Shown here in pieces: positions 7,666-62,261 of a stretch of DNA of 64,000 bases. A program made the position numbers and the translations under genes. The DNA is from an uncultured Pseudomonadales bacterium (GTDB lineage: Bacteria; Patescibacteriota; Microgenomatia; UBA1400; PJMF01), in assembly GCA_964502565.1 (NCBI GenBank), contig CAZCXA010000002.1, forward strand, positions 648 through 64,647, written 5' to 3'. A model generated the notes under the pieces. That model was not told the origin of the DNA. It saw only the letters and a list, made by a program, of their open reading frames with translations, and searched no databases. Numbering within the stretch: position 1 is the stretch's first letter; each line of letters opens with the position of its first letter.

Positions 7666-7727
7666 TTTTTTTACGGTTGAAGATCCTCACCGCTAACTAA
7701 AGCCTGCCACAAAAAAAGCGCTTTATT

Positions 7728-8382: not shown

Positions 8383-8681
8383 CACATACTCCACTATTAC
8401 TAGCGGTGTAGACTATATCATCATCCAACTTTGTTAAAAGTTGGAGTTCGGCGTATTATAAAAAGCCTTATTTTAATCATCAAATAACTGATAATTAATG
8501 CTTTCTATCTTCGTCTTTAATCAAGATTAAAGACTCCAGTCGTTACAGGGTCAATCCAGTTAATTAAATTAATAGGACGACTTCCCACGGTATTGCCCTC
8601 AAACCCAGATTTGGTGTAGGGGTTCACCGTTATAAGCCGAATTTAGCCTTTTAGATCTCTCTAAAAGGGGCCCTTCATTTG
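8383..8681 (-). other. Candidate group I intron / IVS (299 nt, no ORF) in 23S at the E. coli ~2593 site (GGCU|CAUC)
   Basis: An AT-rich block interrupts the conserved sequence GTCGGCT|CATCGCATCCTGGGGCTG. The 5' exon ends in U and the insert ends in G, as group I introns do. Without the insert the rRNA length is normal. Confidence 0.45.
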
Positions 8682-9253
8682 AGCCGACATCGAGGTAGCA
8701 AACCACGCCGACGCTAGGGACGCTTAGGCGTGATAACTCTGTTATCCCCAGGGTAGCTTTTATCCGATAAGCCCGGCACCTTCCACAAAGTGCACGGGGA
8801 TCACTATAACCTGCTTTCGCATCTGCTTGGCTCGTATGCCTCACAGTTAAGCACCCATATGCTATTGCACTTACAGCCTGATTTCCATCCAGACTAAGGG
8901 TACCATTGCGCGCTTGCGTTACCTTTTAGCAAGCAACCTCCCCAGTTAAACTATCCACCTGACATTGTTCCTGACCAAGTTTGCATTGGCCTTAGGTTAG
9001 ATGCTCTATAGAAAACGAGTGGTATTACATTGTTGAACTATGCCCAAGGCATAACTCTCCCACCTATTCTAGACAATCTTATATAAAGCACCAGTGTCAA
9101 GCTATAGTAAAGCTCCATGGGGTCTTATTGTCCTGCCGTCAGTAGACCGCATCTTTACGGCCATTTCAATTTCACCGAGTACCAGTTCAAGACAGTATTC
9201 CGCTCGTTAAACCTTTCGTGCGCGTCACCAATTAAGTGACAAGGTACTTCGCT

Positions 9254-11243: not shown

Positions 11244-11995
11244 TTGTTTGGTATTTAGCCTTGGAGTGTGGTCACCCCAGCTTAAAACGGGAGTTTGCCG
11301 TCTCCCATCCTATTCAGGAATCTCTCTAGATTGTTTTGGATTTTGCGTACACGACTTTCACGCTCTTTGGTCACTAATTCCATAGTGTTCTGCTATCCGC
11401 CACTCTCACATGTGAGAGTCCTACAACCCCCCTGTAAACAGGGGTTTGGGCTGTTCCCGGTTCGCTCATCGCTTACTAAGGGAATCTCTTACGATTTTTT
11501 TTCCTCCGGGTACTAAGATATTTCAGTTCCCCGACTTACCCCCGTGCCGTAAACGGCACAGTCATCTTGCTCTCACAAGATGGGGTTTCCCCATTCGGAC
11601 ACCGACGGGTTATGTGCTTTTTGCCAGCTAACCGTCGACTTTCGCGGGCTATACGTCCTTCATCGGCCAAACAAGCCTAGGCATTCGCTTTCTACGTTAG
11701 TTCACACAAGTTTAGTTAGACCCAAGGGTCTAACAAGATATTGAATTTGAAATTGAACTATTTTGACGATGTTTTCTTCACATGTTAAAGAGCGAAAGGA
11801 TGTTTTCATCTCTCGCAGTAGCCTCGCTGTCTGATTCTGTCAGACGCGCGTTGAAAACTGTTCAAGATGTTAAACATTCCTTATATTCAGTAATCTTTTA
11901 ACCGGTTCATTTTATTTTTTTCAAGCAACTTCCAAACATTTCTGATTTGCTAACCAAAAAGCAAGGTGTTACAAGAGACAATAAAAAGAACCCTG

Positions 11996-12069
11996 TGGAC
12001 CTGGGGAGACTCGAACTCCCGGTCTCTTCGTTGCAAACGAAGCGCTTTAGCCAACTAAGCCACAGGCCC
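11996..12069 (-). tRNA. tRNA-Ala (anticodon UGC)
   Basis: Reverse complement is GGGCCTGTGGCTTAGTTGGCTAAAGCGCTTCGTTTGCAACGAAGAGACCGGGAGTTCGAGTCTCCCCAGGTCCA. It forms a cloverleaf with anticodon loop UUUGCAA and the G3:U70 Ala identity pair. No CCA is encoded. It sits in the spacer upstream of the 23S. Confidence 0.9.
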
Positions 12070-26206: not shown

Positions 26207-28549
26207 CTACAACCTTGCTCTCACTGCCATCTCTGCCTCGATCACCTCTTTATCCTTACCATACTTTAACCGAGACAGCTCTCTAATCATCTCAGCCAAC
26301 TTCGGATTCATCTGCGCCTCGATCTTTGCAATATCTTTTTCCAAAGACACGCTAAAGGGAGTCATTGGCTCATTGTCTACAATGGTCTTCATGTACACAT
26401 GGTATTTTTCAACATTGGTGAGGTCGGTCTCGGTAAAAACAGGCGTGAACTCATGTTGCAAAAAGTTGGCATCGGTGACACCAATTCGAAACGAAACCAT
26501 GGTGCCCACGTTGCCAAAGACAGCATTTTTTACATCTTCATCAATCTGACCAATATATTGATTAGCTACAATTAAGTTAAGCTTGTACTTGCGAGCCTCT
26601 GATAAAATCACAGCAAAATCTTCTGTGGCATAGTTTTGAAACTCATCAACATATAAGAAAAAATCTTCGCGTTTTTCCATGGGCATATCAGCTCTACTCA
26701 TGGCAGCAGTCAAGATTTTAGGCACCAAGATCAAACCCAAAAACTTAGCATCTTCCTCGCCCAACACACCTTTGGATAAATTACACAGCAAGATCTTTTT
26801 TTCATCCATTGCTTTTCTAAAATTAAACGCGCTTTTGGGCTGACCAATAATATTTCGCATGGTTTTGTTGGTCACAAATCGACCAAACTTGGACACAATG
26901 TAATCCAATACCTCAGACTTATGGAAATCACTGGTTTGAGCGATTTGGTCGGTCCAGTAACGCTTTACCACCGGGTCTTTAATATAAGGCAAGGTTTCTA
27001 CAACAAAGTTTTCATCAGTTATAATACGTACCACCTCAATAAAGGTGGAGTTTTCTCGACTCATCACCGATAACATGGCATTACGAATCGCGTGCTCAAA
27101 ACGCGGACCAATAATACCGGTCCGATGCGGATCATATAACTTATACATCAAGTTAATAATCGAGCTCACCACAAAATGTTGCTCCTGTTCTGAATAAGCC
27201 TCCATAATATTTAAGCCCATGGGACGTTCTCTATCAGAAGGATTAAAATAGATCACATCCTCGGCTCTCTCAGGAGGCATCAGCTCTAAAATATCTTCAA
27301 CAAAATCACCGTGAGGATCGATCGCGGCCACACCCTTACCTTCTTCAATATCCTGCAAGATCATCTGCTTTAAAAACTCTGATTTTCCAGTACCGGTTTT
27401 ACCAACAATATACATGTGGCGTCGGCGATCATTTAACTTCATATACACCTTGCGTCGCTCGCCTCGATAATAAGACTCACCAATAAATAAACCCTCGTCA
27501 GGAATTTCTTGAGGCGCTGGGGCATTTTTAGCGGTCAGCCACTTAATGTGGTGGGTCTCAACGGTTTTGTTGGGAAAATGAAAAACGGTTGCCAACTCTG
27601 CCGTGCTTAAGATGCTTGTTTTGAACTTAAACAAAGGCATATATCGATAGATAAAATCAATCACAAACAGATGCTTGATCAAAACCTTGGTTTTTTTAAA
27701 CTTGTTGTAGGCGGAGGTAAACTGAGCAAAAGCACCGGTTATATTTCCTAAGTGAGTTTCTGCCTCGTCATTTGTAGAAGCAGATACCACTATCCTGATA
27801 GAGGTACGAAAGCCTGGATGCGACACCTGATCACTAATAGCCTCCATTTCCTTAGGATCATGGTCATAACTTGCTTTCTCTGGATCAGCCTCTTTTTTCT
27901 TTTTTTCAGTAATATAAGAACGGCCTTTTTTTTGCCACTTACCTGGCACTGGTTGAATTAAAATCTGCAAAACCCCGCCTTCTGTTTCTCGCATTTTGGA
28001 CATGGCAGTGGTGATTAAAGACATACCATCAGTGGGCAAATCTTTGTAAATCTCTGCTGGATGATAATCCGCACTATCTTTTTTTAAACTTGCAAAGGCG
28101 ACTCGACCGTCTTCATTAAAAATATTAACCTCATCAACTTCTTTAATATATGCCTGGGGATAAGCGCCGTTAATCTGCTTCTCAACATGATCTTGAATCT
28201 TGCGCGAACAACTCACATAAAAAGCAATCTCTTCTTTTAAAGCCACGATCTCGAACGCCACAATATCCTGCGATCTAGTTAAAGAAAAACCACTTTTATT
28301 AAGTGAGTAAAGCCCAGCAAACATCTGCTCGGCTGCATCGATTTTAATCTCATTATCTTTGGGCAGTTTTACTAATAAAGTGACAAAACTGAGAGCATAA
28401 TCTTGACGTTTACGATTTTTAAGCCACTGTAAAATCATGTAGGTGAAGGCTACTAAAATAGCCAACAAAACCACACCCAAGATTAAACTAAATAAAATCA
28501 CGGTGAGTTGTGAGATGAGTTGGTTAGAAGCTTCGGTGGTGATCTGCAT
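26207..28549 (-). CDS. Membrane-anchored T4SS coupling-protein-like ATPase (VirD4/TraG/TraD family) with an unusual ~330-aa N-terminal domain
   Basis: N-terminal TM. Walker A GKTGTGKS. Walker B region FFLYVDEFQNY. Overall TraG/VirD4-like C-terminal ATPase. Confidence 0.55.
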   Translation of the reverse strand: MQITTEASNQLISQLTVILFSLILGVVLLAILVAFTYMILQWLKNRKRQDYALSFVTLLVKLPKDNEIKIDAAEQMFAGLYSLNKSGFSLTRSQDIVAFEIVALKEEIAFYVSCSRKIQDHVEKQINGAYPQAYIKEVDEVNIFNEDGRVAFASLKKDSADYHPAEIYKDLPTDGMSLITTAMSKMRETEGGVLQILIQPVPGKWQKKGRSYITEKKKKEADPEKASYDHDPKEMEAISDQVSHPGFRTSIRIVVSASTNDEAETHLGNITGAFAQFTSAYNKFKKTKVLIKHLFVIDFIYRYMPLFKFKTSILSTAELATVFHFPNKTVETHHIKWLTAKNAPAPQEIPDEGLFIGESYYRGERRKVYMKLNDRRRHMYIVGKTGTGKSEFLKQMILQDIEEGKGVAAIDPHGDFVEDILELMPPERAEDVIYFNPSDRERPMGLNIMEAYSEQEQHFVVSSIINLMYKLYDPHRTGIIGPRFEHAIRNAMLSVMSRENSTFIEVVRIITDENFVVETLPYIKDPVVKRYWTDQIAQTSDFHKSEVLDYIVSKFGRFVTNKTMRNIIGQPKSAFNFRKAMDEKKILLCNLSKGVLGEEDAKFLGLILVPKILTAAMSRADMPMEKREDFFLYVDEFQNYATEDFAVILSEARKYKLNLIVANQYIGQIDEDVKNAVFGNVGTMVSFRIGVTDANFLQHEFTPVFTETDLTNVEKYHVYMKTIVDNEPMTPFSVSLEKDIAKIEAQMNPKLAEMIRELSRLKYGKDKEVIEAEMAVRARL

Positions 28550-39979: not shown

Positions 39980-41122
39980 TTAATTTACCTTTGTCTTTAA
40001 CACCTTTTCCAAATCTATAACCTTCACCTCCTCAAGTTTGCTTATAATCTCGTTAATCAAATCTTCAGAAGCGGTAGTAATAATCACCTGCTCTTCCCCT
40101 ATTAACTGAAAAACTCTTGTCCGATTTTCTTTATCTAGCTCAGAAAGAATATCGTCTAACAGCAATACTGGGAGTTGCCCAGTTTTTTCTTCCAGGTAAC
40201 TCAGCTCTGCTTTCTTAAGCCAAATCACACCCATTCTTTTTTGGCCACGAGAGCCATAAGACTCGATTGGCATGTAATTTTTTGTAGAGGTTTTCTTTGT
40301 TGACACGCCCAGTAAAATCTCAAAATCATCTTTATGCGGACCAATCAAGGTAAAACCGGTGGCAATCTCAGCCTGGCGGTGATTCCAGATTCTTTTTTCA
40401 CTAATCAATGAGGGCTGGTACTCCAAGCGCATGGGTAAGGGAGGGTCAACATTAGAGTTGATAAAACTAATTAAATCACGTCTTTTTTTTTGCAAAAGTT
40501 CACCATGCTTGATCAAGGTTAAGTCCCAGTAAGTCAGAGACTCAACCGACTGCCGATTGTCTTTGATCAGCGAGAGAAGTTTGTTGCGACGGCGTAAGGC
40601 TTTGGTGTATTTATCAAGTGAGAAATCATAGTTTTTATCGATTAACTGCAAAATCTCATCTAGAAAATTGCGCCGGCGCGATGGTGAGCCTTCAACCAAG
40701 CGCATATCCTCAGGTCTAAACACGATCGTTAATAACTTTCCTGAAAAGTCACGTTTTCGTTTACGATTATCATTAACACTGAAAAGCTGTTTAAGAGTGC
40801 GACGTCCATTAACCTCTCCTCGAGTAATGAGAACTGACAGCTCTAGCTCATCTAAACCTGCCAGCTCTAGATTGTTGTTAATAGAGGAGATATCACTATA
40901 GACCTTACCTCTCACCCTACCCAACTCTCGCCCAAACTGGATCATCTCATCAGGTTTGTGTGCACGAAAACTAGTGCCGTTTGAGAGTAAGCGAATACCT
41001 TCAATAACAGAACTTTTTCCCTTGGCATTTGGCGCCTTAAACACGGTTACTTGTTGTTTGAACTCAAGAAGTAGGTTAGAAAATAAGCGAAAATGCTCAA
41101 GATAAATCTTGTGGAGGAACAT
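39980..41122 (-). CDS. recF: DNA replication and repair protein RecF
   Basis: N-terminal IYLEHFRLF...VFKAPNAKGKSSVIEGIRLL (Walker A). C-terminal LLLDDILSELD. Confidence 0.8.
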   Translation of the reverse strand: MFLHKIYLEHFRLFSNLLLEFKQQVTVFKAPNAKGKSSVIEGIRLLSNGTSFRAHKPDEMIQFGRELGRVRGKVYSDISSINNNLELAGLDELELSVLITRGEVNGRRTLKQLFSVNDNRKRKRDFSGKLLTIVFRPEDMRLVEGSPSRRRNFLDEILQLIDKNYDFSLDKYTKALRRRNKLLSLIKDNRQSVESLTYWDLTLIKHGELLQKKRRDLISFINSNVDPPLPMRLEYQPSLISEKRIWNHRQAEIATGFTLIGPHKDDFEILLGVSTKKTSTKNYMPIESYGSRGQKRMGVIWLKKAELSYLEEKTGQLPVLLLDDILSELDKENRTRVFQLIGEEQVIITTASEDLINEIISKLEEVKVIDLEKVLKTKVN

Positions 41123-41259: not shown

Positions 41260-41634
41260 ATGACAAGTTTTTTTCAAAAACACCTTCAGTTGCCTTTGGT
41301 CAATGGTGCTGACCAGCCAATGAAGCTAGGCGATCAGCTCTTATTAAGAAACAATCAAAAAGTATCAGAAGTTTATGACACTCCTGGTACGATCGTCAAC
41401 TTAGTGGTGAGTAATCTTTTTTTGTTAGCAGGTATTGTTATCCTCTTTCTTATCATCCTGGCGGGCTTGAGTTATATTAAAGATAGTGAAAAAGGTAAAG
41501 AGGAGGCAAAGAACTTGGTCACAGGTGCAGTCATTGGCTTTGTCGTGATGTTTTCTGCGTATTGGGTTATCCAAATTATCAAACTTATTACTGGGGCAGA
41601 TATACCCATCCAGATACCAAAGATACCTATCTAG
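41260..41634 (+). CDS. Pilin-like paralog 1 of 7 (two-TM hairpin with KGKEEAK loop); VirB2/TrbC-like T4SS pilin candidate
   Basis: TM - SEKGKEEAKNLVTGAVIGFVV - TM. The most divergent member and lacks an obvious signal peptide. Confidence 0.4.
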   Translation: MTSFFQKHLQLPLVNGADQPMKLGDQLLLRNNQKVSEVYDTPGTIVNLVVSNLFLLAGIVILFLIILAGLSYIKDSEKGKEEAKNLVTGAVIGFVVMFSAYWVIQIIKLITGADIPIQIPKIPI

Positions 41635-41691
41635 AAACCAAAGACACTCATTTAAATAAAGTTTAATACCAAAAATTAAAATACTGAGTTT

Positions 41692-42162
41692 ATGAAAAAA
41701 AAGTCTTCAAATTCCTTAAATAGTTGCTGGCATAAAACTTTGACTTTCTTCACCATTTTTGTGACAATCTCTTTAGCTATGCCTCAAACACTTTTAGCAG
41801 ATGATGAGACCACAAGCATCTTTGGTGAGATTGCTCCGCCTCCGGGAGTAAATAAATATCAAGCTGAGGTTGAAAAAGTGGGAGGACAAGTTGGCATCAT
41901 CCTTTTTCTTTCCAACATTATTAGGCTAATCACTGTTGCGGCTGGAATCTGGGTCATGTTTAATCTTATCTCAGCTGGTTGGCTTTATATCAACTCGTCA
42001 GGAGATTCTGGCGCAACTGAAAAGGTGTCTGCAAAAATTACCAACAGCATCATTGGTCTAGCTGTAGTAGCTCTGTCATATACTCTTGCGGGTGTGGTTG
42101 GTTACTTAATTTTTGGAGACGCCGGGTTTATTCTTAACCCAGCACTTTTTACTATTAATTAA
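41692..42162 (+). CDS. Pilin-like paralog 2 of 7 (signal peptide + two TM)
   Basis: Signal peptide ...ISLAMPQTLLADDETT. Core AGWLYINSSGDSGATEKVSAKITNSIIGLAVV. Confidence 0.5.
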   Translation: MKKKSSNSLNSCWHKTLTFFTIFVTISLAMPQTLLADDETTSIFGEIAPPPGVNKYQAEVEKVGGQVGIILFLSNIIRLITVAAGIWVMFNLISAGWLYINSSGDSGATEKVSAKITNSIIGLAVVALSYTLAGVVGYLIFGDAGFILNPALFTIN

Positions 42163-42224
42163 ACCCTAATTTTCAGAACTACGCACTTATTAAATCGTCG
42201 ATTTTAACCAACTCCAAAACCGAT

Positions 42225-42641
42225 ATGACCTCAATAAAAATCTTAACAAATTTAATACAACTTACAGGACAGTTTGGTAATGATGGGTTTCAGCCCCCCA
42301 CTGACGCTTACACCGAAGGCGCTGACACCAACCCAGGATTAATCAAGATACTAGCGACAGGTATCTCCAATGTAATTGGAATCTTAACTACTTTGGCTGG
42401 TCTGTTTTTTATTTTAAACTTTTTTTTAGGAGCGGTTGGTTGGATTACAGCAGGCGATGATACTGGCAAGGCTGAAAAGGCAAGAACTAGAATCATGAAT
42501 GCTGTTGTTGGTTTGGTCATTGTTGTGGCATCTTATGGTGTCATTGGCCTGATTGGCTCAATGATCGGTATCGACTTTATTAATATTGGAGAGATTTTAG
42601 AAAAAATACATCCAGGAAACTTAGTTGATGGATTAGGCTAA
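42225..42641 (+). CDS. Pilin-like paralog 3 of 7
   Basis: Core VGWITAGDDTGKAEKARTRIMNAVVGLVIV between two TM helices. Confidence 0.5.
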   Translation: MTSIKILTNLIQLTGQFGNDGFQPPTDAYTEGADTNPGLIKILATGISNVIGILTTLAGLFFILNFFLGAVGWITAGDDTGKAEKARTRIMNAVVGLVIVVASYGVIGLIGSMIGIDFINIGEILEKIHPGNLVDGLG

Positions 42642-42698
42642 GTTTAAAAAAATTTTTTAATAACAAATAAATTATCATCTTTAATTTACAAAAATAAT

Positions 42699-43109
42699 AT
42701 GCTTAACTCTTTTATGGATTTTTTTAATAAATTTTTTGCTTCAGCTGTTTTTGCTGATGAATCAACCAGCACCGATGGTCAGATTATTAATCCAGTTATT
42801 GGAGAGTGGGGTAAAAATCCAGAAAAGGCAACTAGTGGTGTGCTTTTTGCTGAATATGTTGTACGAATCTGGCGAATAGGCATTAGTGTTGGCGCCTTCG
42901 TCGTGGTCTTGTTTTTTATTATTGCCTCATATGAGTGGTTAACCAGTGGTGATGATACCAAAGGTGTTGAAAAGGCTAAATCTAGATTTACCAACGCCAC
43001 GATTGGCTTGGTTTTGCTCGTGGCTTCTTTTGTGATTGTTGGCTTTATTGGCGTATTATTATTTGGAGATGAGTTTGATATTCTTCACCTTACTTTTCCA
43101 ACTAATTAA
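42699..43109 (+). CDS. Pilin-like paralog 4 of 7 (signal peptide)
   Basis: Signal ...ASAVFADEST. Core YEWLTSGDDTKGVEKAKSRFTNATIGLVLL. Confidence 0.5.
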   Translation: MLNSFMDFFNKFFASAVFADESTSTDGQIINPVIGEWGKNPEKATSGVLFAEYVVRIWRIGISVGAFVVVLFFIIASYEWLTSGDDTKGVEKAKSRFTNATIGLVLLVASFVIVGFIGVLLFGDEFDILHLTFPTN

Positions 43110-43139
43110 CTCATCAAGCAACAAATTAACTCTTTTTTT

Positions 43140-43631
43140 ATGATCCAAAACTTACTCGCAGACGCAGCCGTTCAACCAGAAATTAATCTTAGGGAAGAAG
43201 GTTCAAAAGTTTTACCATTCGGAGAAAACATGAATAAACCAGGAGATAATAGCGGTGTTGTTTTTTCGATTATTAGTTCACTGCTAACCGTGGTAGCCAT
43301 TGTGGCTGGAGTGTTGCTACTTGTTAACTTGATTTACGCCGGTATTCAGTGGATAGCCGCTGGAGGAGATTCCGGCAAGCTTGAAAAGGCGCGCAATAGA
43401 ATCATGCACTCAATTGTTGGCTTTGTTATTTTTGTCTCGGCAATATCTATATTTATGCTGATCCAGAACTTGCTCAATATTGAGTTACTCAAGTTTTCAT
43501 ATAAAAAACACAAACCGAACATTACTTCCTACTCCTGCTGTACTGTGAACCAGGAGTGTGTTGGCTTTATTGGTAATGGGGAAGAGTTTGGTTGCACCAA
43601 TATAACCCGAGCCTGCGAGTCTTGTAAATAA
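43140..43631 (+). CDS. Pilin-like paralog 5 of 7 with a Cys-rich C-terminal extension
   Basis: Core IQWIAAGGDSGKLEKARNRIMHSIVGFVIF. C-terminal SYSCCTVNQECVGFIGNGEEFGCTNITRACESCK (7 Cys). Confidence 0.5.
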   Translation: MIQNLLADAAVQPEINLREEGSKVLPFGENMNKPGDNSGVVFSIISSLLTVVAIVAGVLLLVNLIYAGIQWIAAGGDSGKLEKARNRIMHSIVGFVIFVSAISIFMLIQNLLNIELLKFSYKKHKPNITSYSCCTVNQECVGFIGNGEEFGCTNITRACESCK

Positions 43632-43839
43632 ACATAATTAAAATATTTTTTTTACTATTTATATCAAGATTGCGATCAAGTTTAACCTCAATTTTTACAA
43701 AAGTTATAATGCATATTATGCTAAAAAATGTTTAATGTATTGTGCAAATTTTCAAATCTTTGACTTTTTCATTTAAAACCTGATAAAATATCAATTAGAC
43801 TAATAATTAATTAATATTTTAAAAAATTAAGGAGAAAAT

Positions 43840-44226
43840 ATGAACAGAATTTCTAAATCAATTATTGGAGTCGGGGTGTCGGTTGCCTCAACTTTTGCTT
43901 TAGCATCTCAAGTAATGGCCGACGAACTTGGTATAGAGGGCACGGTTGAGATTCCAGAAGGCTTCTTTTTTACAGATGCAGAAGGTCTTGTGTCAACAAT
44001 ACTGCGTGCCGTTATGCTAATTGCTGGTTTGCTGGTCTTTGCTTATCTTATCTGGGGTGGTATTGAGTGGATAACCTCAGGTGGTGACAAAGGCAAAACA
44101 GAAAATGCCAGAAATAAAATTACTGCTGCGGTTATCGGTTTGGTAATCTTGGCAGCTTCCTATGCAATCTTCCAGATTGTACTTTCTCTACTGGGAGTGC
44201 AGGGATATAAAGGAATCTTTGGATAA
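43840..44226 (+). CDS. Pilin-like paralog 6 of 7 (signal peptide)
   Basis: Signal ...ALASQVMADELG. Core IEWITSGGDKGKTENARNKITAAVIGLVIL. Followed by a rho-independent terminator. Confidence 0.5.
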   Translation: MNRISKSIIGVGVSVASTFALASQVMADELGIEGTVEIPEGFFFTDAEGLVSTILRAVMLIAGLLVFAYLIWGGIEWITSGGDKGKTENARNKITAAVIGLVILAASYAIFQIVLSLLGVQGYKGIFG

Positions 44227-44254
44227 TAACCACTTTAAAACCATTAAAGTATTA

Positions 44255-44281
44255 AAACCCTCGGCAACGAGGGTTTTTTTA
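44255..44281 (+). terminator. Rho-independent terminator after pilin-like gene 6
   Basis: AAACCCTCG-gcaa-CGAGGGTTT followed by TTTTTTT. Confidence 0.7.
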
Positions 44282-44395
44282 TTAATTAAAATCTTTTTAG
44301 CTGAGTCTTTACAATTCCTGTTATATAATAGATTTATTAAAAGATAGTCTTAAAGAACTACCTACTTAATTATTTATTATTTTCTGTAAATCATT

Positions 44396-44854
44396 ATGAA
44401 AAAATCAAGAGTCCTTAGTGCTTCAATGCCAATATTTTTTTTTCTTGTGATCACCAGCCTCTTTCTTCCTCAAAAAATTCAAGCTCAAGTTAGCCCTCAA
44501 GAATGGGAACCTGGTTTGTGTCAAATCGATGGCGTAGCCACTGTTCAAGGAGTTGGTTGCCTACTGGCTAACATCTTATCTGTAGCCTTAACCGCTATTG
44601 GCCTAGTTGGATTTGTGATGCTGGTTGTGGGCTCAATGAAATGGCTTTTATCTGGTGGCAATACGCAAAATGTGGAAAGTGCCAGAAAAACCATGACCTG
44701 GGCGTTTGTTGGTTTGGGCGTTGCTCTAGGCTCATTTTTAATGATTAACCTAATTGCTCAATTTACCGGCATCAATGTTATTACCGAGTTCTTTATTCCA
44801 TCTAGCGACACTGGGTTGCCAGGACAGACTCAGTGGCAAAACATTGGCCAATAG
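44396..44854 (+). CDS. Pilin-like paralog 7 of 7 (signal peptide)
   Basis: Signal ...LFLPQKIQAQVS. Core MKWLLSGGNTQNVESARKTMTWAFVGLGVA. Confidence 0.5.
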   Translation: MKKSRVLSASMPIFFFLVITSLFLPQKIQAQVSPQEWEPGLCQIDGVATVQGVGCLLANILSVALTAIGLVGFVMLVVGSMKWLLSGGNTQNVESARKTMTWAFVGLGVALGSFLMINLIAQFTGINVITEFFIPSSDTGLPGQTQWQNIGQ

Positions 44855-44924: not shown

Positions 44925-47174
44925 GTGCAAAAAACCTATAATCACCAACAACACGAAGCAAAGATTTATCAACTTTGGGAAAAAGCTGAGGCGTTTAATC
45001 CTGATAACAACCGACCATCTAGTAAATCCCCTTTTACCATCATCATGCCTCCGCCCAATGCTAACGACCCTTTGCATATTGGTCACGCTATGTTTGTCAC
45101 TATTGAGGACATTCTAGTTCGCTATCATCGCATGCTGGGTGACGACACGCTTTATCTGCCAGGCACCGACCACGCTGGTATTGAAACGCAGTTCGTGTTT
45201 GAAAAAAAACTTAAAAAAGAAGGCAAAACTCGGTTTAATTTTAATCGCAAGACTCTGTATAAAAAAATTTGGGACTATGTGCAAGAAAACTCGGATATAG
45301 CGGTAAAACAAATGAAACAGTTGGGAGCTAGCGCTGACTGGACTCGGTTTAGTTTTATGTTAGACAAGCCAATTGTGGAGATGGTGCTTCAAACTTTTAA
45401 GGATCTTCATAGTAAAAACTTGGTATATCGAGACTTAAGATTAGTCAACTTTAGCCCTTCAGCCGGAACTGCTTATAGTGAACTCGAGATAGTTCATGAG
45501 GAGAGGGTCGCGCCTTTGTATTACATTAAATACGGACCGTTTACTCTGGCTACTACTCGTCCAGAAACAAAGTTTGGTGACACAGCTGTGGCGGTTCATC
45601 CTCAAGACAAGCGCTACACACAATGGGTGGGTAAAGAGATCACTGTGCCAGGAGTGTTGGGAGAGTTCCGAGTAAAAGTAATTACAGATGAGACTGTTGA
45701 CCCCAAGTTTGGCACGGGCGCGGTAAAGGTTACTCCGTTTCATGACCATGATGATTTTGCTATCTGGCAACGACATCTAAAAGAGCTCCCCTACCCTAAA
45801 CAAGTGATTGATTTTGAAGGACGGATGATGGCGTCAGCTGGCAAATACCAAGGTATGAAGGTGGCTCAAGCTCGTGAGGCAGTTGTAAAAGATATGCAAA
45901 AGATGGGGTTAATTGAAAAAATTGACAATAACTATAAACACACGGTCGCATTATGTTACAAAACCGGTTGTGCGATCGAGCCTCTGCCATTAGCTCAATT
46001 TTTTATAAAAGTGGAGCCATTAACCAGGCCTGTCATTAAAGCCATTAAAGATAAAGAGCTTAAAATTTACGGCGCTGGCCATGACAAGATTCTTTTACAC
46101 TGGCTGACAAACTTAAAAGACTGGAACATCTCGCGTCAAATCGTGTGGGGTATTCAGATGCCGATTTGGTATCAAGTTAACGGTTATGAAGACAAGATTG
46201 TGGTTGGCTATCTGGATGACGACAAGAAGTATCACAGCGAAAAACTCAGTCAGGCATTAAAAAAACACGGTCTAAAAGCAGTTGTTGAAAATCTACAAAC
46301 CCTTCGCGCCGAGTTAGCAGTTCCCTATCAAGTGAGTAGAAACCAACCAAAAGATGGTGTCTGGGTTCAAGAAACCGACACCTTTGACACCTGGTTCTCT
46401 TCAAGCCAATGGCCAGTCAATACTCTTAAGAACGCTAAACCTGGTGATTTTGAACGCTTTTACCCTACTCAGGTAATGGAGACTGGTTATGACATTCTCC
46501 CCTTTTGGGTGATGAGAATGCTGATGATGGGGTGGTTTATGACAAACAAGTTCCCGTTTAAAACCATTTATCTTCACGGGCTGATTAGAGACTCTAAAGG
46601 GAGCAAGATGAGCAAAAGTAAGAACAATGTAGTTAACCCACAAGAAGTGACGGAAAAATACGGTACAGACGCGCTTAGAATGGCATTAGTCATCCGTTCT
46701 TCAGCCGGTTTAGACAAATCAATTGGCGATCCAGATTTTAAGGCTATGCGCAACCTAACCAACAAGTTGTGGAACGCGACCAGATATATTTTATTAAATC
46801 TTGATGAGTCAAGGTTGAATGATTATCAAGAAAAACCATTAGACTCTGAATTTTTAAAAACTCTTGAGGAAACCGTGGCCAAGATCACTCGCCAACTCAA
46901 CCAACTTCAAATCGGGTTGGCTGCAGAAACAGTTTATAATCAATTCTGGCACTGGTTTTGCGATCAAGCAATCGAGCAAGCTAAGCAAGATAAGATTTCG
47001 CAAGAAAACTTGATTAAGGGTTTGATAACATTTTTAAAGTTATTCCATCCGTTTATGCCTTTTGTCACAGAACAGATTTGGCAATTGTTAAAAAAGGAAG
47101 AGTTGTTAAAAAAGTTTATCAAGGAAGAGTTGTTAATTCAGACAAGATGGCAAGAGATCGATCAAAAGATTTAG
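44925..47174 (+). CDS. valS: Valine--tRNA ligase (short form)
   Basis: HIGH motif PPPNANDPLHIGHA. KMSKS motif. ...TGYDILPFWVMRMLMMG... matches the ValRS editing/catalytic core. No C-terminal coiled coil. Confidence 0.85.
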   Translation: MQKTYNHQQHEAKIYQLWEKAEAFNPDNNRPSSKSPFTIIMPPPNANDPLHIGHAMFVTIEDILVRYHRMLGDDTLYLPGTDHAGIETQFVFEKKLKKEGKTRFNFNRKTLYKKIWDYVQENSDIAVKQMKQLGASADWTRFSFMLDKPIVEMVLQTFKDLHSKNLVYRDLRLVNFSPSAGTAYSELEIVHEERVAPLYYIKYGPFTLATTRPETKFGDTAVAVHPQDKRYTQWVGKEITVPGVLGEFRVKVITDETVDPKFGTGAVKVTPFHDHDDFAIWQRHLKELPYPKQVIDFEGRMMASAGKYQGMKVAQAREAVVKDMQKMGLIEKIDNNYKHTVALCYKTGCAIEPLPLAQFFIKVEPLTRPVIKAIKDKELKIYGAGHDKILLHWLTNLKDWNISRQIVWGIQMPIWYQVNGYEDKIVVGYLDDDKKYHSEKLSQALKKHGLKAVVENLQTLRAELAVPYQVSRNQPKDGVWVQETDTFDTWFSSSQWPVNTLKNAKPGDFERFYPTQVMETGYDILPFWVMRMLMMGWFMTNKFPFKTIYLHGLIRDSKGSKMSKSKNNVVNPQEVTEKYGTDALRMALVIRSSAGLDKSIGDPDFKAMRNLTNKLWNATRYILLNLDESRLNDYQEKPLDSEFLKTLEETVAKITRQLNQLQIGLAAETVYNQFWHWFCDQAIEQAKQDKISQENLIKGLITFLKLFHPFMPFVTEQIWQLLKKEELLKKFIKEELLIQTRWQEIDQKI

Positions 47175-58482: not shown

Positions 58483-60555
58483 TTATTCTTCTGGCTCTTG
58501 ATAATCATCAATCGAGTGTTGACCATAAACCACAGCTTGTTGACTAATATCAGTGGCTTGAGCCACATTATCTCTATTGTCTTGTAAGCCAGTTGCTTCA
58601 TCTTTAAGCTGGTTGGGTTCATCATGTGATTGACGAGCATTACCTGTAGGCAACACTTGCTCAATCTCAGCTTCATCCTCTTCTTCATAATATGGTTGAG
58701 TATTGGTGTTGTTCGTGAGTTGATCAGTGTGATACTCGGCTTCTCTTGCCTTTTTTCTTGCCAACAACTCGTTGGGATCGGTGGTAATCATGTAGTGCTC
58801 CTCTGGACTTGCAACCACGCGTAGGGCAACATGGTTTTGTCCAACAAAAAAGATGCCCTCTCCCACGTCAGCCGTTACCAAAAGTTGTCGTTCTCCGTTG
58901 GAAAGGTGAAAGGTTTCGGTTAAGGTGTTGATTGAAACCGTGGACTGTTTCATCAACAGTCTAATTGATGCATTAGACACAATGGCTTTGCCAAAATTAT
59001 TGTCTAAAAAGTCCTCTACATCTTGAGTGATGGTGGTGATAGCTAAAAAATACTTTCTAGCTCTTTTAGTCATGGCATAAATAAAACGCGCGCTATCTGG
59101 GTGTTGCATAAAATACCAAGCCTCATCAATTACCAGCAACCGTTTTTTAAAATCTTTTTTAACCTTTGTCCAGATAAAATCTAGGATAATATACATCGCA
59201 ATCGGTCTTAACTCTTCTTCCATCTCTTTAACACTAAACACGGTCAAGGGATTTTGAATATTAATGTTGGTGGGTTTATCTAAAATACCTCTAAAAGAGC
59301 CGGTGATAAACTTTTCCAAGCGCGCGACCAAGTCATCGGCTTGATCATTTTCCATACCAGCTAGGGCTTTATAAAGATCCTCCATTAAAGGTGGAATGTT
59401 TTTTTGAGTAGCTGGATCAGGGGTAATACCCTTAGCCTTATAAGAAGAGACTAGCGCGCGGTCCAAAAGCGCCTCTTGCTCAGAAGTCATCTCGCCTAGC
59501 ATAACTTTTAACAAACCATGTAAAGATAAAATTTTTTGTCCGAGCTCATTAGATCCCTCCTCATAAACCTGCGATAGATCAAAAGGGTTAATCTTTGCTT
59601 TAGAGCCAAAGGTAAAGTTAATATACTCACCACCCACGGTATCACAAAGCTCCTCATACTCTTTTTCTGGATCAAGGACAATCACCTCGGTGTCAAACAT
59701 TAGCTGGCGTAAGATCTCCACCTTAACAGCATAGGACTTACCTGCTCCTGATTTTGCTAGGATTAGCATGTTGTAGTTCTCAAGCTGGAACCTATCAAAA
59801 ATAACCAAGGACTCGTTGTGTTCGTTAATGCCGTATAGGATTCCTTGCTCAGAAGTTAGCTCAGAGGAAACAAAAGGGAAGGTGGTAGCTAAAGAAGTGG
59901 TGTCCATGTTGCGGGCAATGTTCAAGTAGTCAACTCCCATGGGCAGGGTGGTTTTGAAACCGTCTGCCATTTGCAGGGTTGCTTTTTTTGAAACGATCAG
60001 TAGTGAGCCTAGGGTGGACTGCACATTTTTAGTAACCTTCTCCAGCATCTCAACAGAATCAGCCCTGATCGTGGTATAAAGACCAAATTGATAAAACCTT
60101 TCAGCCCCAGCTGCCAACTGCTCCCTGATGTTGCGAGCATCGATCAGTTGAATCTCGGTCGTAATGTTACTAATCTTGCCAGCCCTAATATCAGACTGGA
60201 TCTCAGCCTCCATCTCAGTAATTTTTCTTTTAAGACTGTCTAAGATCTCACCACTGTCCATGGGAAAGATAAACATGGCAGTGTTAAGCTGATGAGGAAA
60301 GTTGATCAACGGTGATAGCCAGTTAGCCGGTACTGACCTAGGATAACCAGCGATAAACAAGGTTCTTGAGTATGAGGAGTTGATCTTTTGAAAAGTGAAG
60401 TCAATCTCGATCGCTTCAGGGGCAATAATATCCTCAATGGTTACCAGACCTTTTGAAAACTCCTCGATTTGTCTTAACTCCTCTTTTTTCTTAAGGTCTT
60501 GTTCTTCTTCAGCAGTTGTTTTTTTTAAAAATGGAAAAGGTAGATCAAGCTTCAT
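58483..60555 (-). CDS. virB4: Type IV secretion system ATPase VirB4 (Gram-positive/Tn916 Orf16-like)
   Basis: ...RTLFIAGYPRSVPANWL..., ...TTLPMGVDYLNIARNMDTTSLATTFPFVSSEL..., Walker A LAKSGAGKS, Walker B LLVIDEAW. Acidic C-terminal tail. Confidence 0.75.
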   Translation of the reverse strand: MKLDLPFPFLKKTTAEEEQDLKKKEELRQIEEFSKGLVTIEDIIAPEAIEIDFTFQKINSSYSRTLFIAGYPRSVPANWLSPLINFPHQLNTAMFIFPMDSGEILDSLKRKITEMEAEIQSDIRAGKISNITTEIQLIDARNIREQLAAGAERFYQFGLYTTIRADSVEMLEKVTKNVQSTLGSLLIVSKKATLQMADGFKTTLPMGVDYLNIARNMDTTSLATTFPFVSSELTSEQGILYGINEHNESLVIFDRFQLENYNMLILAKSGAGKSYAVKVEILRQLMFDTEVIVLDPEKEYEELCDTVGGEYINFTFGSKAKINPFDLSQVYEEGSNELGQKILSLHGLLKVMLGEMTSEQEALLDRALVSSYKAKGITPDPATQKNIPPLMEDLYKALAGMENDQADDLVARLEKFITGSFRGILDKPTNINIQNPLTVFSVKEMEEELRPIAMYIILDFIWTKVKKDFKKRLLVIDEAWYFMQHPDSARFIYAMTKRARKYFLAITTITQDVEDFLDNNFGKAIVSNASIRLLMKQSTVSINTLTETFHLSNGERQLLVTADVGEGIFFVGQNHVALRVVASPEEHYMITTDPNELLARKKAREAEYHTDQLTNNTNTQPYYEEEDEAEIEQVLPTGNARQSHDEPNQLKDEATGLQDNRDNVAQATDISQQAVVYGQHSIDDYQEPEE

Positions 60556-60707: not shown

Positions 60708-62261
60708 CTACATTATTTCTGGGATAGGTGGTGGATTATCACCTTGTGTTTTAGCAACCTCATTGGGTTGTTTAACCTGACTACTATCTGTTAACTCATT
60801 TGGTTGAACTGATAATTGAGGCTCACTTGTAGTGGCTTGCGAGTTGTCTTTTGCTGGCGTTTCCACAGTTTGTGTATCTGTTTTTTTATCAGGCTCGGGT
60901 AGATTAAAAACCCCCACCTCTCGAAGCGTGTTGTTAACTGCCTGCTGGGGATTGGGGTGAGTCTGTGATTTTCTGGGTGTAGCATCTTGTTCTTGATCAG
61001 GTTTGGGTTGGGACTGGTTGGCTGATGTGTTATTACTAAAGTTTGCTTTGAGATTTGAGAAGTCCGGCACACCTTCTTGAAAGTCTTGAGGATGGTCGGT
61101 TGTGTCTACAGGGGTGATTAACTGTTGAAACTGTTCCTGTGCTTGTTCGGGAGTAGTTCTAGAAGGTTGATCATAAATAGACTGTTCTTGATTTGTGGTC
61201 GGGAATGATGGGGCCACACCAACTGTATTATTTGCTGAACTAGTGTCAAAGGCTTGATCAAGTTGGTTGGCTTGTTGTTCAAACTGCTGGTTAAGTTCTT
61301 GATCAAGTTGATGAAGCTGGTTATGGTCTGGCAGACTTTGCTGGCTAAGTTGGCCAGCCTGATCTGTGTGATCAAGCTGGGTTGGGTTTTCATATACTGA
61401 TTGGTCAAAATATTGAGTTGAGACTGGTTTGCCAAATTGATCAAACTGCTGGGTCTGTGTTGGTTGTGGTTGGTCTACGGTCATGCTTGGTTGTTCAGGT
61501 TGGTCAAACTGATCATTTAAAGACTGCGGTATCGGTTGGTCTGTAGGTAGGGCTTGATTTAAGGGGTTGTAATCATCTATTATGCTTGCCTTGACCACTG
61601 CTGTTTGATACTCCTCGGTGTTCGTGCCTTCAAAACCCTCGCTAGCCTCAGGATTATAGTTGGTGTAAAAGACCCGAATGATTTCTTGAGTAGTGAGTTG
61701 CCAGGACACCAAACCAATTCTTGCAAACTGACTAATTAGATGATCTCTTCTGGGCTCAAGAATCGCTTGAGCCTTATCAACCAGCACGGTTTTTTCATAC
61801 TTGGTTATGTCAAAAACATCTCTACCCGGAATCACGCTCTCGGCTGAAAGTAGCTCAAGCTCTAGGGGTGTGGCAGGAATGATCACAAAAAATTTTTTAT
61901 CTAACACGTTTCTTTCTTTAATAAGATTGGCAACAAACTCTCGATAGCGAGCAATCCTCTCTCCCTGCGGAGAATGAAAGGTTTCATTCTCTTTTTCTTT
62001 AAGCAGGTTAAGATATTTAGTAACGTCCTTGGTTTGTGATTGAATTATTATCTGGATGGGGTAGTTAAGGGAGTTGAGTAGGGCTGCATAGGTGTAGATG
62101 ACTGCATCTTGTTCATCCTCTGCCAACAAGCCAAAGTTCATGGCGCTGACCCCCAAGATTAAACTTGCGGTACCGTTTTTAAGCAGTATTAAATCATTGG
62201 TGATATCATAAATCTCTAAAAACTCTTGAGTAGCAGATTTGTATTTGGACTTTTCTAACAT
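60708..62261 (-). CDS. Hypothetical T4SS-associated protein: ~230-aa globular N-terminal domain plus ~280-aa Q/P/N-rich disordered C-terminus
   Basis: Immediately upstream of virB4 on the same strand. No motif recognised. The antisense ORFs in the track are low-complexity artefacts. Confidence 0.4.
   Translation of the reverse strand: MLEKSKYKSATQEFLEIYDITNDLILLKNGTASLILGVSAMNFGLLAEDEQDAVIYTYAALLNSLNYPIQIIIQSQTKDVTKYLNLLKEKENETFHSPQGERIARYREFVANLIKERNVLDKKFFVIIPATPLELELLSAESVIPGRDVFDITKYEKTVLVDKAQAILEPRRDHLISQFARIGLVSWQLTTQEIIRVFYTNYNPEASEGFEGTNTEEYQTAVVKASIIDDYNPLNQALPTDQPIPQSLNDQFDQPEQPSMTVDQPQPTQTQQFDQFGKPVSTQYFDQSVYENPTQLDHTDQAGQLSQQSLPDHNQLHQLDQELNQQFEQQANQLDQAFDTSSANNTVGVAPSFPTTNQEQSIYDQPSRTTPEQAQEQFQQLITPVDTTDHPQDFQEGVPDFSNLKANFSNNTSANQSQPKPDQEQDATPRKSQTHPNPQQAVNNTLREVGVFNLPEPDKKTDTQTVETPAKDNSQATTSEPQLSVQPNELTDSSQVKQPNEVAKTQGDNPPPIPEIM

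What the first reader, a model, noticed from the sequence alone, without database searches (positions are those of the whole stretch)
41260..44854. Tandem array of seven divergent paralogs of a small secreted two-TM protein with a conserved W-x-x-G-G-D-x-G-K-x-E-K-A-R loop (T4SS pilin-like)
Seven co-oriented genes (124-163 aa) share one architecture. Most have a cleavable signal peptide, and all have a hydrophobic helix, a short conserved hydrophilic loop, then a second hydrophobic helix. Loop examples: WITAGDDTGKAEKARTRI, WIAAGGDSGKLEKARNRI, WITSGGDKGKTENARNKI. This is the architecture of VirB2/TrbC conjugative pilins, not of type IV pilus pilins. Pairwise identity is low outside the loop, so the array is old or diversifying. 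Member 5 has a 7-Cys C-terminal knot. A terminator after gene 6 suggests at least two transcription units. In an episymbiotic CPR cell such an array could encode a heteropolymeric or antigenically variable surface filament for host attachment or DNA exchange.
Basis: partly seen in the sequence, partly recalled or inferred. Interest (0 to 1): 0.8.

Follow-up and report, generated by a model that had tools for sequence, protein, structure and literature searches.

The report
VirB2-like secretion pilin gene array
Seven neighbouring genes in a tiny symbiotic (CPR/Patescibacteria) bacterium encode divergent copies of a small two-helix membrane protein of the type IV secretion "pilin" family.

Summary
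There are seven co-oriented genes (41260-44854, 124-163 aa) and no other family member in the 64 kb window. Each has two hydrophobic helices joined by a short polar, basic turn.

All seven match Pfam PF18895 (T4SS_pilin), six above the curated cut-off. All seven have the mycoplasma-ICE "pilin-like conjugal transfer protein" model as top NCBIfam hit. The window also encodes VirB4-like, TrsD-like and VirD4-like proteins next to dnaA/dnaN.

Two details were wrong: only 3-4 of 7 have a signal peptide, and member 5 has 6 Cys, not 7.

The kind is already published. Wang 2023 found an essential pilin series in Southlakia. Quiñonero-Coronel 2025 counted 441 arrays of 2-11 VirB2-like genes, abundant in Microgenomatia.

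What I add:
- The array is collinear (g1 to g7) across about 50 related genomes, mostly between recF and valS.
- Orthologs are as conserved as the flanking housekeeping genes, so the array is old and stable, not hypervariable.
- Gene 6 alone carries a conserved Shine-Dalgarno site, its own intergenic regions and, in the window and about a third of relatives, a terminator. This suggests one major and six accessory subunits.

No pilus has been shown. Fold searches were uninformative.

The parts
41260..41634 (+). pilin paralog g1 (124 aa). No signal peptide; the orthologs in some relatives carry a signal peptide or a long Cys-rich N-terminal domain.
   Evidence: PF18895 28.6 bits. Two TM segments. 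Orthologs 40-68% identical. The L004 ortholog is 272 aa with a signal peptide and an extra domain.
41692..42162 (+). pilin paralog g2 (156 aa) with a classical signal peptide (…TLLA/DDE).
   Evidence: PF18895 22.7 bits, E 1e-4, below the GA cut-off of 26.6. Family profile E 2e-37. Duplicated in some relatives.
42225..42641 (+). pilin paralog g3 (138 aa), no signal peptide.
   Evidence: PF18895 31.5 bits; NF045849 E 8e-6.
42699..43109 (+). pilin paralog g4 (136 aa) with a short atypical hydrophobic N-terminus (…AVFA/DES).
   Evidence: PF18895 35.6 bits. Fused to g5 in L043, L049 and L050.
43140..43631 (+). pilin paralog g5 (163 aa). No signal peptide; C-terminal 6-Cys extension predicted to lie outside the cell.
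   Evidence: PF18895 35.4 bits. 6 Cys in the tail. A 6-Cys tail is kept in the L001, L004 and L048 orthologs; elsewhere it is a 2-Cys C-terminal loop or absent.
43840..44226 (+). pilin paralog g6 (128 aa), candidate major subunit. Clear signal peptide (…QVMA/DE), acidic N-tail, loop SGGDKGKTENARNK.
   Evidence: Best PF18895 score, 39.4 bits. AF2 hairpin with pLDDT >90. Orthologs in 56 species genomes. Most conserved paralog, median 52% identity.
44396..44854 (+). pilin paralog g7 (152 aa). Classical signal peptide (…KIQA/QV) and a Cys pair just before TM1.
   Evidence: PF18895 30.8 bits and TrbC E 0.12. The C-x(8-16)-C pair before TM1 is present in 29 of 47 last-position proteins.
43829..43834 (+). 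Shine-Dalgarno AAGGAG, 5 nt upstream of the g6 start.
   Evidence: Sequence. It is the only match of 5 nt or more to AGGAGG among the 54 genes checked in the window. A match of 4 nt or more is conserved at position 6 in 24/27 seven-gene arrays, against 12% of background ORFs; Fisher p 4e-18.
43760..43789 (+). Promoter-like site (TTGACT-18-TAAAAT, TG-extended) in the 208-nt spacer before g6. A second site lies at 43682-43710.
   Evidence: Consensus scan only: 16 sites found in the region against 12 expected. This is weak evidence.
44254..44277 (+). Intrinsic-terminator-like hairpin (10-bp stem, GCAA loop) followed by a T-run, after g6.
   Evidence: A hairpin plus T-run is found at 36% of g6-g7 junctions in relatives and at 0% of the junctions from g1 through g5 to g6.
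58483..60555 (-). VirB4-like T4SS ATPase next to dnaA, 13.6 kb from the array.
   Evidence: Pfam TraG P-loop and AAA_10. NCBIfam NF045971 conju_CD1110, 371.6 bits against a cut-off of 325; also VirB4_plasma, 260 bits.
60708..62261 (-). TrsD-like N-terminal region followed by a long Q/P-rich tail, upstream of virB4.
   Evidence: NF041427 TrsD E 8.6e-6 and the N-terminal part of VirB4_plasma E 9e-7, both far below their cut-offs. No Pfam hit.
26207..28549 (-). VirD4-like coupling-protein ATPase, 12.7 kb from the array on the other side.
   Evidence: PF10412 TrwB_AAD_bind 36.1 bits. Sub-threshold hits to TraD and CD1115 VirD4-like models.

Best explanation
The seven genes are a chromosomal array of VirB2-like pilin paralogs (Pfam PF18895) of the monoderm-type type IV secretion system of a Microgenomatia/Pacebacteria-like CPR bacterium.

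Shown:
- Family membership.
- The two-helix hairpin with a basic turn and acidic N-tails.
- Exactly seven copies in the window.
- virB4-, trsD- and virD4-like genes in the same origin-proximal 35 kb.
- Collinear conservation of the array (g1 to g7) across about 50 related genomes, with ortholog divergence equal to that of recF and valS.

Inferred:
- The proteins insert into the cytoplasmic membrane through Sec/YidC with N- and C-termini outside and the K/R-rich turn inside. Signal peptidase trims g2, g6, g7 and perhaps g4.
- The VirB4 machine then extracts and polymerises them into an extracellular tube or stub that reaches the host cell. The turn would line the lumen, as in F and T pili.
- Gene 6 is the abundant major subunit. 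It is the only gene in the window with a Shine-Dalgarno site. It has its own spacer and, in the window and about a third of relatives, a terminator, and it is the most conserved paralog.
- g1-g5 (a tight operon) and g7 are low-copy accessory subunits. Their distinct external N- or C-terminal decorations (the g5 Cys knob, the g7 disulfide loop, the g1 extra domain in relatives) would serve priming, tip or adhesion roles. These roles may substitute for the missing VirB5.
For: Family and homology:
- PF18895 hits 7/7, six above GA, and 45/45 relatives.
- The profile finds only these seven in the window.
- All seven have NF045849, the mycoplasma-ICE 'pilin-like conjugal transfer protein', as top NCBIfam hit, E 2e-7 to 0.022.
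- Proteins found by the family profile (P0224, P0231, P0226) pass both PF18895 and PF04956 TrbC/VirB2, which links the two families.

Structure and topology:
- Hairpin model with pLDDT >90.
- Charge distribution fits N-out, loop-in.

Context:
- VirB4 passes the CD1110 model. TrsD-like and VirD4-like genes are present, next to dnaA and dnaN. This matches the Microgenomatia layout in PMC12102498.

Conservation:
- Positional orthologs are 48-74% identical; paralogs 19-43%.
- The order g1 to g7 is kept in the loci of 56 species genomes.
- Median ortholog identity is 45-52%, against recF 45% and valS 57%.

Gene 6:
- The Shine-Dalgarno site is specific to position 6, p 4e-18.
- Among junctions within the g1-g7 series, terminator-like hairpins occur almost only at the g6-g7 junction (plus 5% of g6-g6 junctions).

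Literature:
- The pilin series is essential in S. epibionticum (PMC10633639).
- Arrays of 2-11 genes are described in PMC12102498.
Against: - No pilus built from these proteins has been observed in any CPR organism (PMC12857230 calls it a possibility).
- There is no direct significant match to PF04956 (best in the window E 0.12).
- hhalign against Agrobacterium-type VirB2 gives 1.9% probability.
- There is no sequence hit to solved pilins.
- The array is 13 kb from virB4, not adjacent. No VirB6- or VirB3-like gene was recognised in the window.
- Three of the seven lack a signal peptide.
- The major/minor assignment rests only on expression signals, and the genomes compared are related, so the counts are not independent.
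Confidence: 0.72

Rival explanations
1. The proteins are membrane-resident parts of the T4SS translocon and do not form an extracellular filament. Examples would be a hetero-oligomeric channel or collar across the membrane and wall, or VirB3-like VirB4 anchors. Other monoderm T4SSs lack pili.
For: - The VirB4 is of the monoderm CD1110 / mycoplasma-ICE type.
- Gram-positive T4SSs are described as pilus-less (PMC12102498).
- The nearest NCBIfam family comes from wall-less mycoplasma ICEs. The review describes the small ICE proteins CDS13 and CDS15 as VirB3-like.
- VirB6 is not recognisable in Microgenomatia, so small hairpins might fill a channel role.
Against: - No PF05101/VirB3 hit at E<=1.
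- Signal peptides and acidic N-tails give an N-out topology, the opposite of VirB3.
- External Cys-rich decorations on g5 and g7 imply exposure outside the cell.
- A single strongly translated member fits a polymer subunit.
Confidence: 0.17
2. The array is a repertoire of alternative major pilins, used one at a time or diversifying under host pressure. This would give antigenic or host-range variation, as proposed for Bartonella and Anaplasma VirB2 paralogs.
For: - Low paralog identity, 19-43%.
- Lineage-specific extra copies of g2 and g6, with arrays of 8-12 genes.
- The tail at position 5 is variable.
- The idea is put forward in PMC12102498.
Against: - Every paralog has a collinear ortholog across about 50 genomes.
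- Orthologs diverge no faster than recF and valS.
- Expression signals are fixed by position.
- No repeats or invertible elements were noted.
Confidence: 0.07
3. They are generic small two-TM membrane proteins unrelated to secretion, such as bacteriocin-immunity, holin-like or stress proteins. On this view the Pfam name is a misnomer and the matches are driven by TM composition.
For: - Sub-threshold hits to unrelated TM families (DUF456 in 11/45 members) show that compositional noise exists.
- Fold searches cannot discriminate among helical hairpins.
- The array is flanked by housekeeping genes, not T4SS genes.
Against: - All seven share the same top NCBIfam hit, a conjugation family.
- There is a transitive link to TrbC/VirB2.
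- No bacteriocin, phage or immunity genes lie in the neighbourhood.
- In Saccharimonadia the family lies inside the T4SS cluster and is essential.
- Pilin genes lie near virB4 in 1135 of 1948 assemblies.
Confidence: 0.04

Closest known systems
VirB2-like pilin arrays of Patescibacteria (Wang et al. 2023, Cell, PMC10633639; Quiñonero-Coronel et al. 2025, Microb Genom, PMC12102498)
   Same: - Tandem, co-oriented, sequence-divergent PF18895-type genes.
- The published range of 2-11 per array and average identity of 25% fit this one.
- A Patescibacteria chromosome with an origin-proximal virB4/trsD.
- Arrays are reported as abundant in Microgenomatia.
   Different: - Here the array is not inside the T4SS cluster. 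It sits between recF and valS, about 13 genes from virB4.
- The papers as I read them do not report the collinear orthology, the housekeeping-like evolutionary rate, or the Shine-Dalgarno and terminator signals specific to g6.
- They favour a variation or versatility reading.
Pfam PF18895 T4SS_pilin
   Same: All seven match over nearly the whole 71-position model. The match covers TM1, the turn and TM2.
   Different: - Gene 2 is below the gathering score.
- The N-terminal tails and the C-terminal Cys knob lie outside the model.
VirB2 / TrbC / TraA conjugative pilins of diderm T4SS (PF04956; T-pilus 8cue/8exh; F pilus)
   Same: - Small size.
- A signal peptide in some members.
- Two hydrophobic helices with a basic turn, and N-out / C-out topology.
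- Encoded in genomes with VirB4.
- Intermediate sequences pass both Pfam models.
   Different: - No direct significant sequence or profile match.
- The host is monoderm.
- There are seven paralogs rather than one.
- No VirB5, VirB1 or outer-membrane core was seen in the window.
- Cyclisation, acetylation and lipid binding are unknown.
NCBIfam NF045849, Mbov_0395 family pilin-like conjugal transfer protein of mycoplasma ICEs
   Same: - It is the top NCBIfam hit for all seven, covering positions 5-79 of 80.
- It is a monoderm MPF-FATA-type system whose VirB4 (Mbov_0397 model) also matches this window's VirB4.
   Different: - All scores (14-31 bits) are below the 40-bit cut-off.
- It is a single-copy gene in a mobile element that conjugates DNA.
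- Here the genes form a chromosomal seven-gene array in a system reported to lack a relaxase in most Patescibacteria.
Major/minor pilin sets of type IV pili and T2SS pseudopili
   Same: The logic of one abundant subunit plus several conserved low-copy paralogs encoded together.
   Different: - The fold and leader are unrelated: there is no class III prepilin signal.
- The assembly ATPase is different.
- This is an analogy only.

Membership tests
Pfam PF18895 T4SS_pilin | HMM score at or above the gathering cut-off (26.6 bits) | tested here: met
   Six of seven score 28.6-39.4 bits. Gene 2 scores 22.7 bits, E 1e-4. 45/45 relatives match.
Pfam PF18895 T4SS_pilin | Two hydrophobic helices joined by a short polar turn | tested here: met
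   Hydropathy. AF2 helices 47-79 and 84-118, pLDDT >90.
TrbC/VirB2 pilins (PF04956) | Direct HMM match above the gathering cut-off (27.9 bits) | tested here: not met
   Only gene 7 matches, at 13 bits, E 0.12. 10/45 relatives match below threshold, best E 4.6e-5.
TrbC/VirB2 pilins (PF04956) | Profile-profile or transitive homology to bona fide VirB2/TrbC | tested here: inconclusive
   hhalign of the family against 20 Agrobacterium-type VirB2 sequences gives probability 1.9%. However, P0224, P0231 and P0226 were found by the family profile at E 1e-59 to 1e-74 and pass both PF18895 and PF04956 on the same repeat type.
TrbC/VirB2 pilins (PF04956) | Fold match to solved T-pilus or F-pilus subunits | tested here: inconclusive
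TrbC/VirB2 pilins (PF04956) | Cleavable signal peptide, and N-out / loop-in / C-out topology with a basic loop | tested here: inconclusive
   Genes 2, 6 and 7 have classical signal peptides, gene 4 is atypical, and genes 1, 3 and 5 have none. The charge pattern fits loop-in. SignalP and TMHMM were not available.
TrbC/VirB2 pilins (PF04956) | Encoded together with VirB4 and other T4SS genes | tested here: met
   The same window holds VirB4-like, TrsD-like and VirD4-like genes, 13.6 and 12.7 kb away, not adjacent. No virB4 lies within 10 kb of the array in the 56 related loci. Co-occurrence statistics are in PMC12102498.
TrbC/VirB2 pilins (PF04956) | Polymerises into an extracellular pilus (with phospholipid) | not testable with these tools
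   Needs multimer modelling, cryo-EM or proteomics. No CPR T4SS pilus is reported in the papers read.
NCBIfam NF045849 Mbov_0395 pilin-like conjugal transfer protein | HMM score at or above the cut-off (40 bits) | tested here: not met
   It is the top hit for 7/7, but scores are 14.4-30.6 bits.
Patescibacteria VirB2 arrays (PMC12102498 definition) | Two or more PF18895/PF04956 genes in tandem in a genome carrying virB4 | tested here: met
   Seven are in tandem. virB4 is in the window. Whether this VirB4 belongs to the Patescibacteria clade was not tested phylogenetically.
Type IV pilus (T4P) pilins | Class III prepilin leader (G/FTLxE) and a single N-terminal hydrophobic helix | tested here: not met
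   No such motif is present in any of the seven sequences, and each has two TM helices. No Pfam T4P pilin family (e.g. N_methyl/PF07963) appears among the hits listed at E<=1.
VirB3 / PrgI | VirB3-family HMM match; N-in hairpin without a signal peptide | tested here: not met
   No VirB3 family appears among the Pfam hits at E<=1. Signal peptides and acidic N-tails indicate N-out.
Bacteriocin / immunity loci | Neighbourhood of bacteriocin, processing-transporter or immunity genes | tested here: not met
   The flanks are recF, an NAD(P)HX dehydratase, valS and L25 here, and the same in the relatives.

The most novel reading that the evidence does not exclude
The array is a fixed, clade-wide set of seven non-redundant VirB2-like subunits: one major (g6) and six accessory. 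Together they would build a heteromeric T4SS pilus in a monoderm. The accessory paralogs would take over the priming, tip and adhesin roles that VirB5 or surface adhesins play elsewhere. The family would have been inherited with the monoderm MPF-FATA-type machine (compare the mycoplasma-ICE pilin-like protein) rather than borrowed from diderm systems.
Probability: 0.3. Interest if true: 0.6.

Novelty: already known. Interest (0 to 1): 0.3.

Why it matters
T4SS genes, including the pilin series, are essential for the epibiotic growth of the one genetically tractable CPR bacterium. What the system does is still called completely unknown (PMC11665869).

This locus adds no new kind of element. The comparative features found here turn the vague 'variable pilins' idea into a testable major/minor-subunit model for what would be the first pilus of a monoderm T4SS. 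Those features are the fixed order of seven paralogs, their housekeeping-like conservation, and a single member with the window's only Shine-Dalgarno site plus its own terminator.

Tried and rejected
- Sequence search of the family profile against all PDB chains found only OSTC at E 3 and no pilin.
- hhalign against an alignment of Agrobacterium-type VirB2 gave 1.9% probability. The VirB2 alignment was narrow (63% mean identity), so this is a weak negative.
- The search for related loci with the 45-sequence alignment failed because no stretch was conserved enough. It was redone with gene 6 alone.
- I considered that g4 and g5 might be one gene read through a stop. In the window they are in frame and separated by a single TAA, and they are fused in L043, L049 and L050. 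I rejected this: in-frame neighbours occur in 11/52 loci, no more than chance.
- I looked for hidden signal peptides upstream of genes 1, 3 and 5. No ATG, GTG or TTG lies upstream in the stop-to-stop ORFs, and the orthologs of g3 and g5 (and the L001 ortholog of g1) also lack them; some g1 orthologs do carry one.
- No further family member, VirB6, VirB3 or relaxase was recognised among the long ORFs of the window scanned with Pfam.
- The second structure job, on the g5 Cys tail, was not run because too few admissible homologs were available for a useful alignment.

Full report
**Observation.** The ORF listing shows seven + strand ORFs at exactly the reported coordinates: 124, 156, 138, 136, 163, 128 and 152 aa. 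They are separated by 30-208 nt and flanked by recF (39980-41122, -) and a class I aminoacyl-tRNA synthetase (valS-like, 44925-47174, +). A profile built from the family and run with all filters off finds these seven among all 491 stop-to-stop ORFs of the window, at E 1e-29 to 1e-46. Nothing else scores below E 0.05. All seven have two hydropathy peaks with a polar stretch between them. An AlphaFold2 model of gene 6 built on a 45-sequence alignment gives a signal-peptide helix and then a hairpin, H47-79 and H84-118, with pLDDT >90. The break is at S-G-G-D, so the conserved motif is a turn plus the polar start of helix 2, not the middle of one span. Paralog identity is 19-43% over local alignments.

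Three details need correcting:
- The loop motif is a consensus. Apart from the start Met, only one Glu and one Gly are invariant.
- Only genes 2, 6 and 7 have classical signal peptides. Gene 4 has a short atypical one. Genes 1, 3 and 5 have none, and no upstream start is available.
- The tail of member 5 has six Cys, not seven.

The terminator-like hairpin after gene 6 is real: 44254-44277, a 10-bp stem followed by a T-run.

**What the proteins are.** Pfam PF18895 (T4SS_pilin) is the top hit for all seven. Six exceed the gathering score and gene 2 reaches 22.7 bits. All 45 relatives I aligned match it too. In NCBIfam, all seven have the same top hit, NF045849, the 'Mbov_0395 family pilin-like conjugal transfer protein' of mycoplasma ICEs. 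E-values run from 2e-7 to 0.022 and all scores are below the 40-bit cut-off.

Direct links to classical VirB2/TrbC are weak:
- PF04956 appears only for gene 7, at E 0.12, and below threshold in 10/45 relatives.
- A profile search of PDB sequences finds no pilin.
- hhalign against 20 Agrobacterium-type VirB2 sequences gives 1.9% probability.

There is an indirect link. The exhaustive profile search (103,803 representatives at E<=1e-3) has multi-domain proteins at the top. Their repeat units pass both PF18895 and PF04956 (P0231: 263.6 and 144.6 bits). I therefore treat the family as a divergent branch of the VirB2/TrbC superfamily, with homology supported transitively but not directly. Type IV pilus pilins are excluded: there is no class III leader and there are two TM helices. 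VirB3 is unlikely: there is no HMM hit and the topology is N-out.

**Context.** The window is CPR-like. It has a 23S rRNA of 3.7 kb with a group I intron. Named homologs come from Pacebacteria, Woesebacteria, Gottesmanbacteria and Microgenomates. The window covers the origin region: dnaA 56437-58008, dnaN, rnpA and yidC. It also holds three T4SS-related genes:
- A VirB4-like ATPase (58483-60555) that passes NCBIfam's CD1110 VirB4 model and also hits the mycoplasma-ICE VirB4 model.
- A protein just upstream (60708-62261) whose N-terminus weakly matches TrsD.
- A VirD4-like coupling protein (26207-28549).

This is the layout published for Microgenomatia: virB4 and trsD next to dnaA, dnaN and rnpA, with VirB6 hard to detect (PMC12102498). 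The array is about 13 genes from virB4, not adjacent to it. No bacteriocin, phage or immunity genes are nearby.

**Literature.**
- Wang et al. [quoted passage not shown]
- Quiñonero-Coronel et al. 2025 (PMC12102498) searched 3,035 Patescibacteria genomes with PF18895 and PF04956. They found 441 arrays of 2-11 pilin genes in 383 assemblies. [quoted passage not shown] The authors suggest versatility toward hosts, by analogy with Bartonella and Anaplasma.
- A 2025 FEMS review (PMC12857230) calls these the only monoderm T4SSs with VirB2-like pilins and treats a pilus as a possibility.

The finding is therefore correct but already known in kind. The proteins of this locus are still labelled 'hypothetical protein'.

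**What the comparison adds.** Exact-protein look-ups and a scan of one genome per species gave 60 related loci.
- In nearly all loci long enough to judge, the array is co-oriented and ordered g1-g2-g3-g4-(g5 or a g6-like copy)-g6-g7. It usually lies between recF and valS. It most often has 7 genes and sometimes 8-12, through extra g1-, g2- or g6-like copies.
- Positional orthologs are 48-74% identical in the nearest genomes, against 19-43% for paralogs.
- Over 19 genomes that also carry recF and valS in the locus, median ortholog identity is 45-52% for g1-g7. It is 45% for recF and 57% for valS.

The duplications therefore predate this clade, and each paralog is kept under ordinary purifying selection. 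That argues against rapid or antigenic diversification and for seven non-redundant roles.

**Expression architecture.**
- In related loci, g1-g5 are packed tightly, with median gaps of 3-20 nt. g6 is preceded by about 117 nt. A hairpin plus T-run is found at 36% of g6-g7 junctions and at none of the junctions from g1 to g6.
- In the window, gene 6 is the only one of 54 genes with a match of 5 nt or more to AGGAGG (AAGGAG, 5 nt before the ATG). The count is 0/47 for the other long ORFs and 0/6 for the other pilins.
- In 27 related seven-gene arrays, position 6 has a Shine-Dalgarno match of 4 nt or more in 24 cases. The rate is 15% at the other positions and 12% in 706 background ORFs; Fisher p 4e-18. 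The genomes are related, so this is not a true probability.
- Gene 6 also has the best Pfam score, a clean signal peptide, an N-tail with no K/R and seven D/E, and the highest ortholog conservation.

I infer that g6 is the abundant major subunit and the others are low-copy accessory subunits. The accessory members differ in their predicted external parts:
- g5 has a C-terminal 6-Cys module, kept in L001, L004 and L048. Elsewhere it is replaced by a 2-Cys C-terminal loop or is absent.
- g7 has a Cys pair just before TM1, present in 29/47 last-position proteins.
- g1 has a 150-residue Cys-rich N-terminal domain in L004.

**Mechanism: shown versus inferred.** Shown are family membership, the hairpin, the charge asymmetry, the presence of T4SS ATPases, and the conservation and expression signals. 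Inferred from established VirB2/TraA biology and from the essentiality data in Southlakia are the following steps:
- Sec/YidC insertion with the basic turn in the cytoplasm, followed by signal-peptidase cleavage.
- Extraction and polymerisation driven by VirB4.
- A tube or stub that contacts the host, with accessory subunits at its base or tip.

The main rival is that the proteins stay in the membrane as translocon parts, as expected for a monoderm T4SS. I cannot exclude this without proteomics or imaging.

**Verdict.** The kind of element is already published. Interest is modest. The residual novelty lies in the fixed seven-member set and the major/minor model.

Noticed in passing
L061:8001-13328 (P0224); also P0231, P0230, P0222, P0226: Single polypeptides consist of many head-to-tail pilin hairpin domains: 17 stretches in 1775 aa, 11 in 1147 aa, and 5-6 in 455-552 aa. 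They are the top hits of the family profile. P0224 lies on a contig that also carries ribosomal protein L39e and a Cas4-like gene, so it is probably archaeal. P0224, P0231 and P0226 pass both PF18895 and PF04956. I did not find such 'poly-pilins' in the papers I read.
   Followed up: partly
L043:9012-9806, L049:4345-5226, L050:8929-9888, L054:188-871; P0005: In four related genomes, two adjacent pilin paralogs are fused into one four-TM ORF (g4+g5 in three of them). In the window, g4 and g5 are in frame and separated by one TAA and 10 codons. In-frame neighbours are not enriched overall (11/52).
   Followed up: yes
window:43829-43834 versus all other genes: This genome appears to use almost no Shine-Dalgarno sites. 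Of 47 other long ORFs, 0 have a match of 5 nt or more and 1 has a 4-nt match. Gene 6 of the array is the exception.
   Followed up: yes
window:8006-11710 (-), 8390-8691: The 23S rRNA gene spans 3705 nt for a 2925-position model and contains a group I intron. 5S lies at 7726-7842 and tRNA-Ala at 11995-12069. No 16S is in the window.
   Followed up: no
window:18087-18161 (+): There is a tRNA-Ile with anticodon TAT (UAU). This is unusual for bacteria, which normally read AUA with a lysidine-modified CAU tRNA.
   Followed up: no
window:8-1309 (-): PilO-like (weak) and PilN genes of a type IV pilus system sit at the window edge. The organism therefore has a T4P machinery separate from the T4SS pilin array.
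   Followed up: no
window:60708-62261 (-): The TrsD-like protein upstream of virB4 has about 230 N-terminal residues resembling TrsD and the VirB4 N-domain. These are followed by about 290 residues of Q/P/T-rich low-complexity sequence.
   Followed up: partly
L005-L059 record titles (e.g. L033 CP011212.1, L040 DASPLQ010000012.1, L058): Many contigs that carry this Pacebacteria-type array in recF…valS synteny are titled 'uncultured Pseudomonadales bacterium', 'candidate division TM6', 'Vitreimonas sp.' or 'Verrucomicrobiae'. This points to mislabelled or mis-binned records. The L058 locus has 56% GC and only 32% identity, so it may be genuinely different.
   Followed up: no
window:35514-38510 (-): An ATP-dependent (archaeal/eukaryotic-type) DNA ligase lies next to a Fic/DOC protein with a DeoR-type HTH. 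The pair is conserved in the same position in L004.
   Followed up: no
window:48913-52035 (-): A 1040-aa protein whose only recognisable domain is DUF4012 lies between the array and the origin genes. It is conserved in L004.
   Followed up: no
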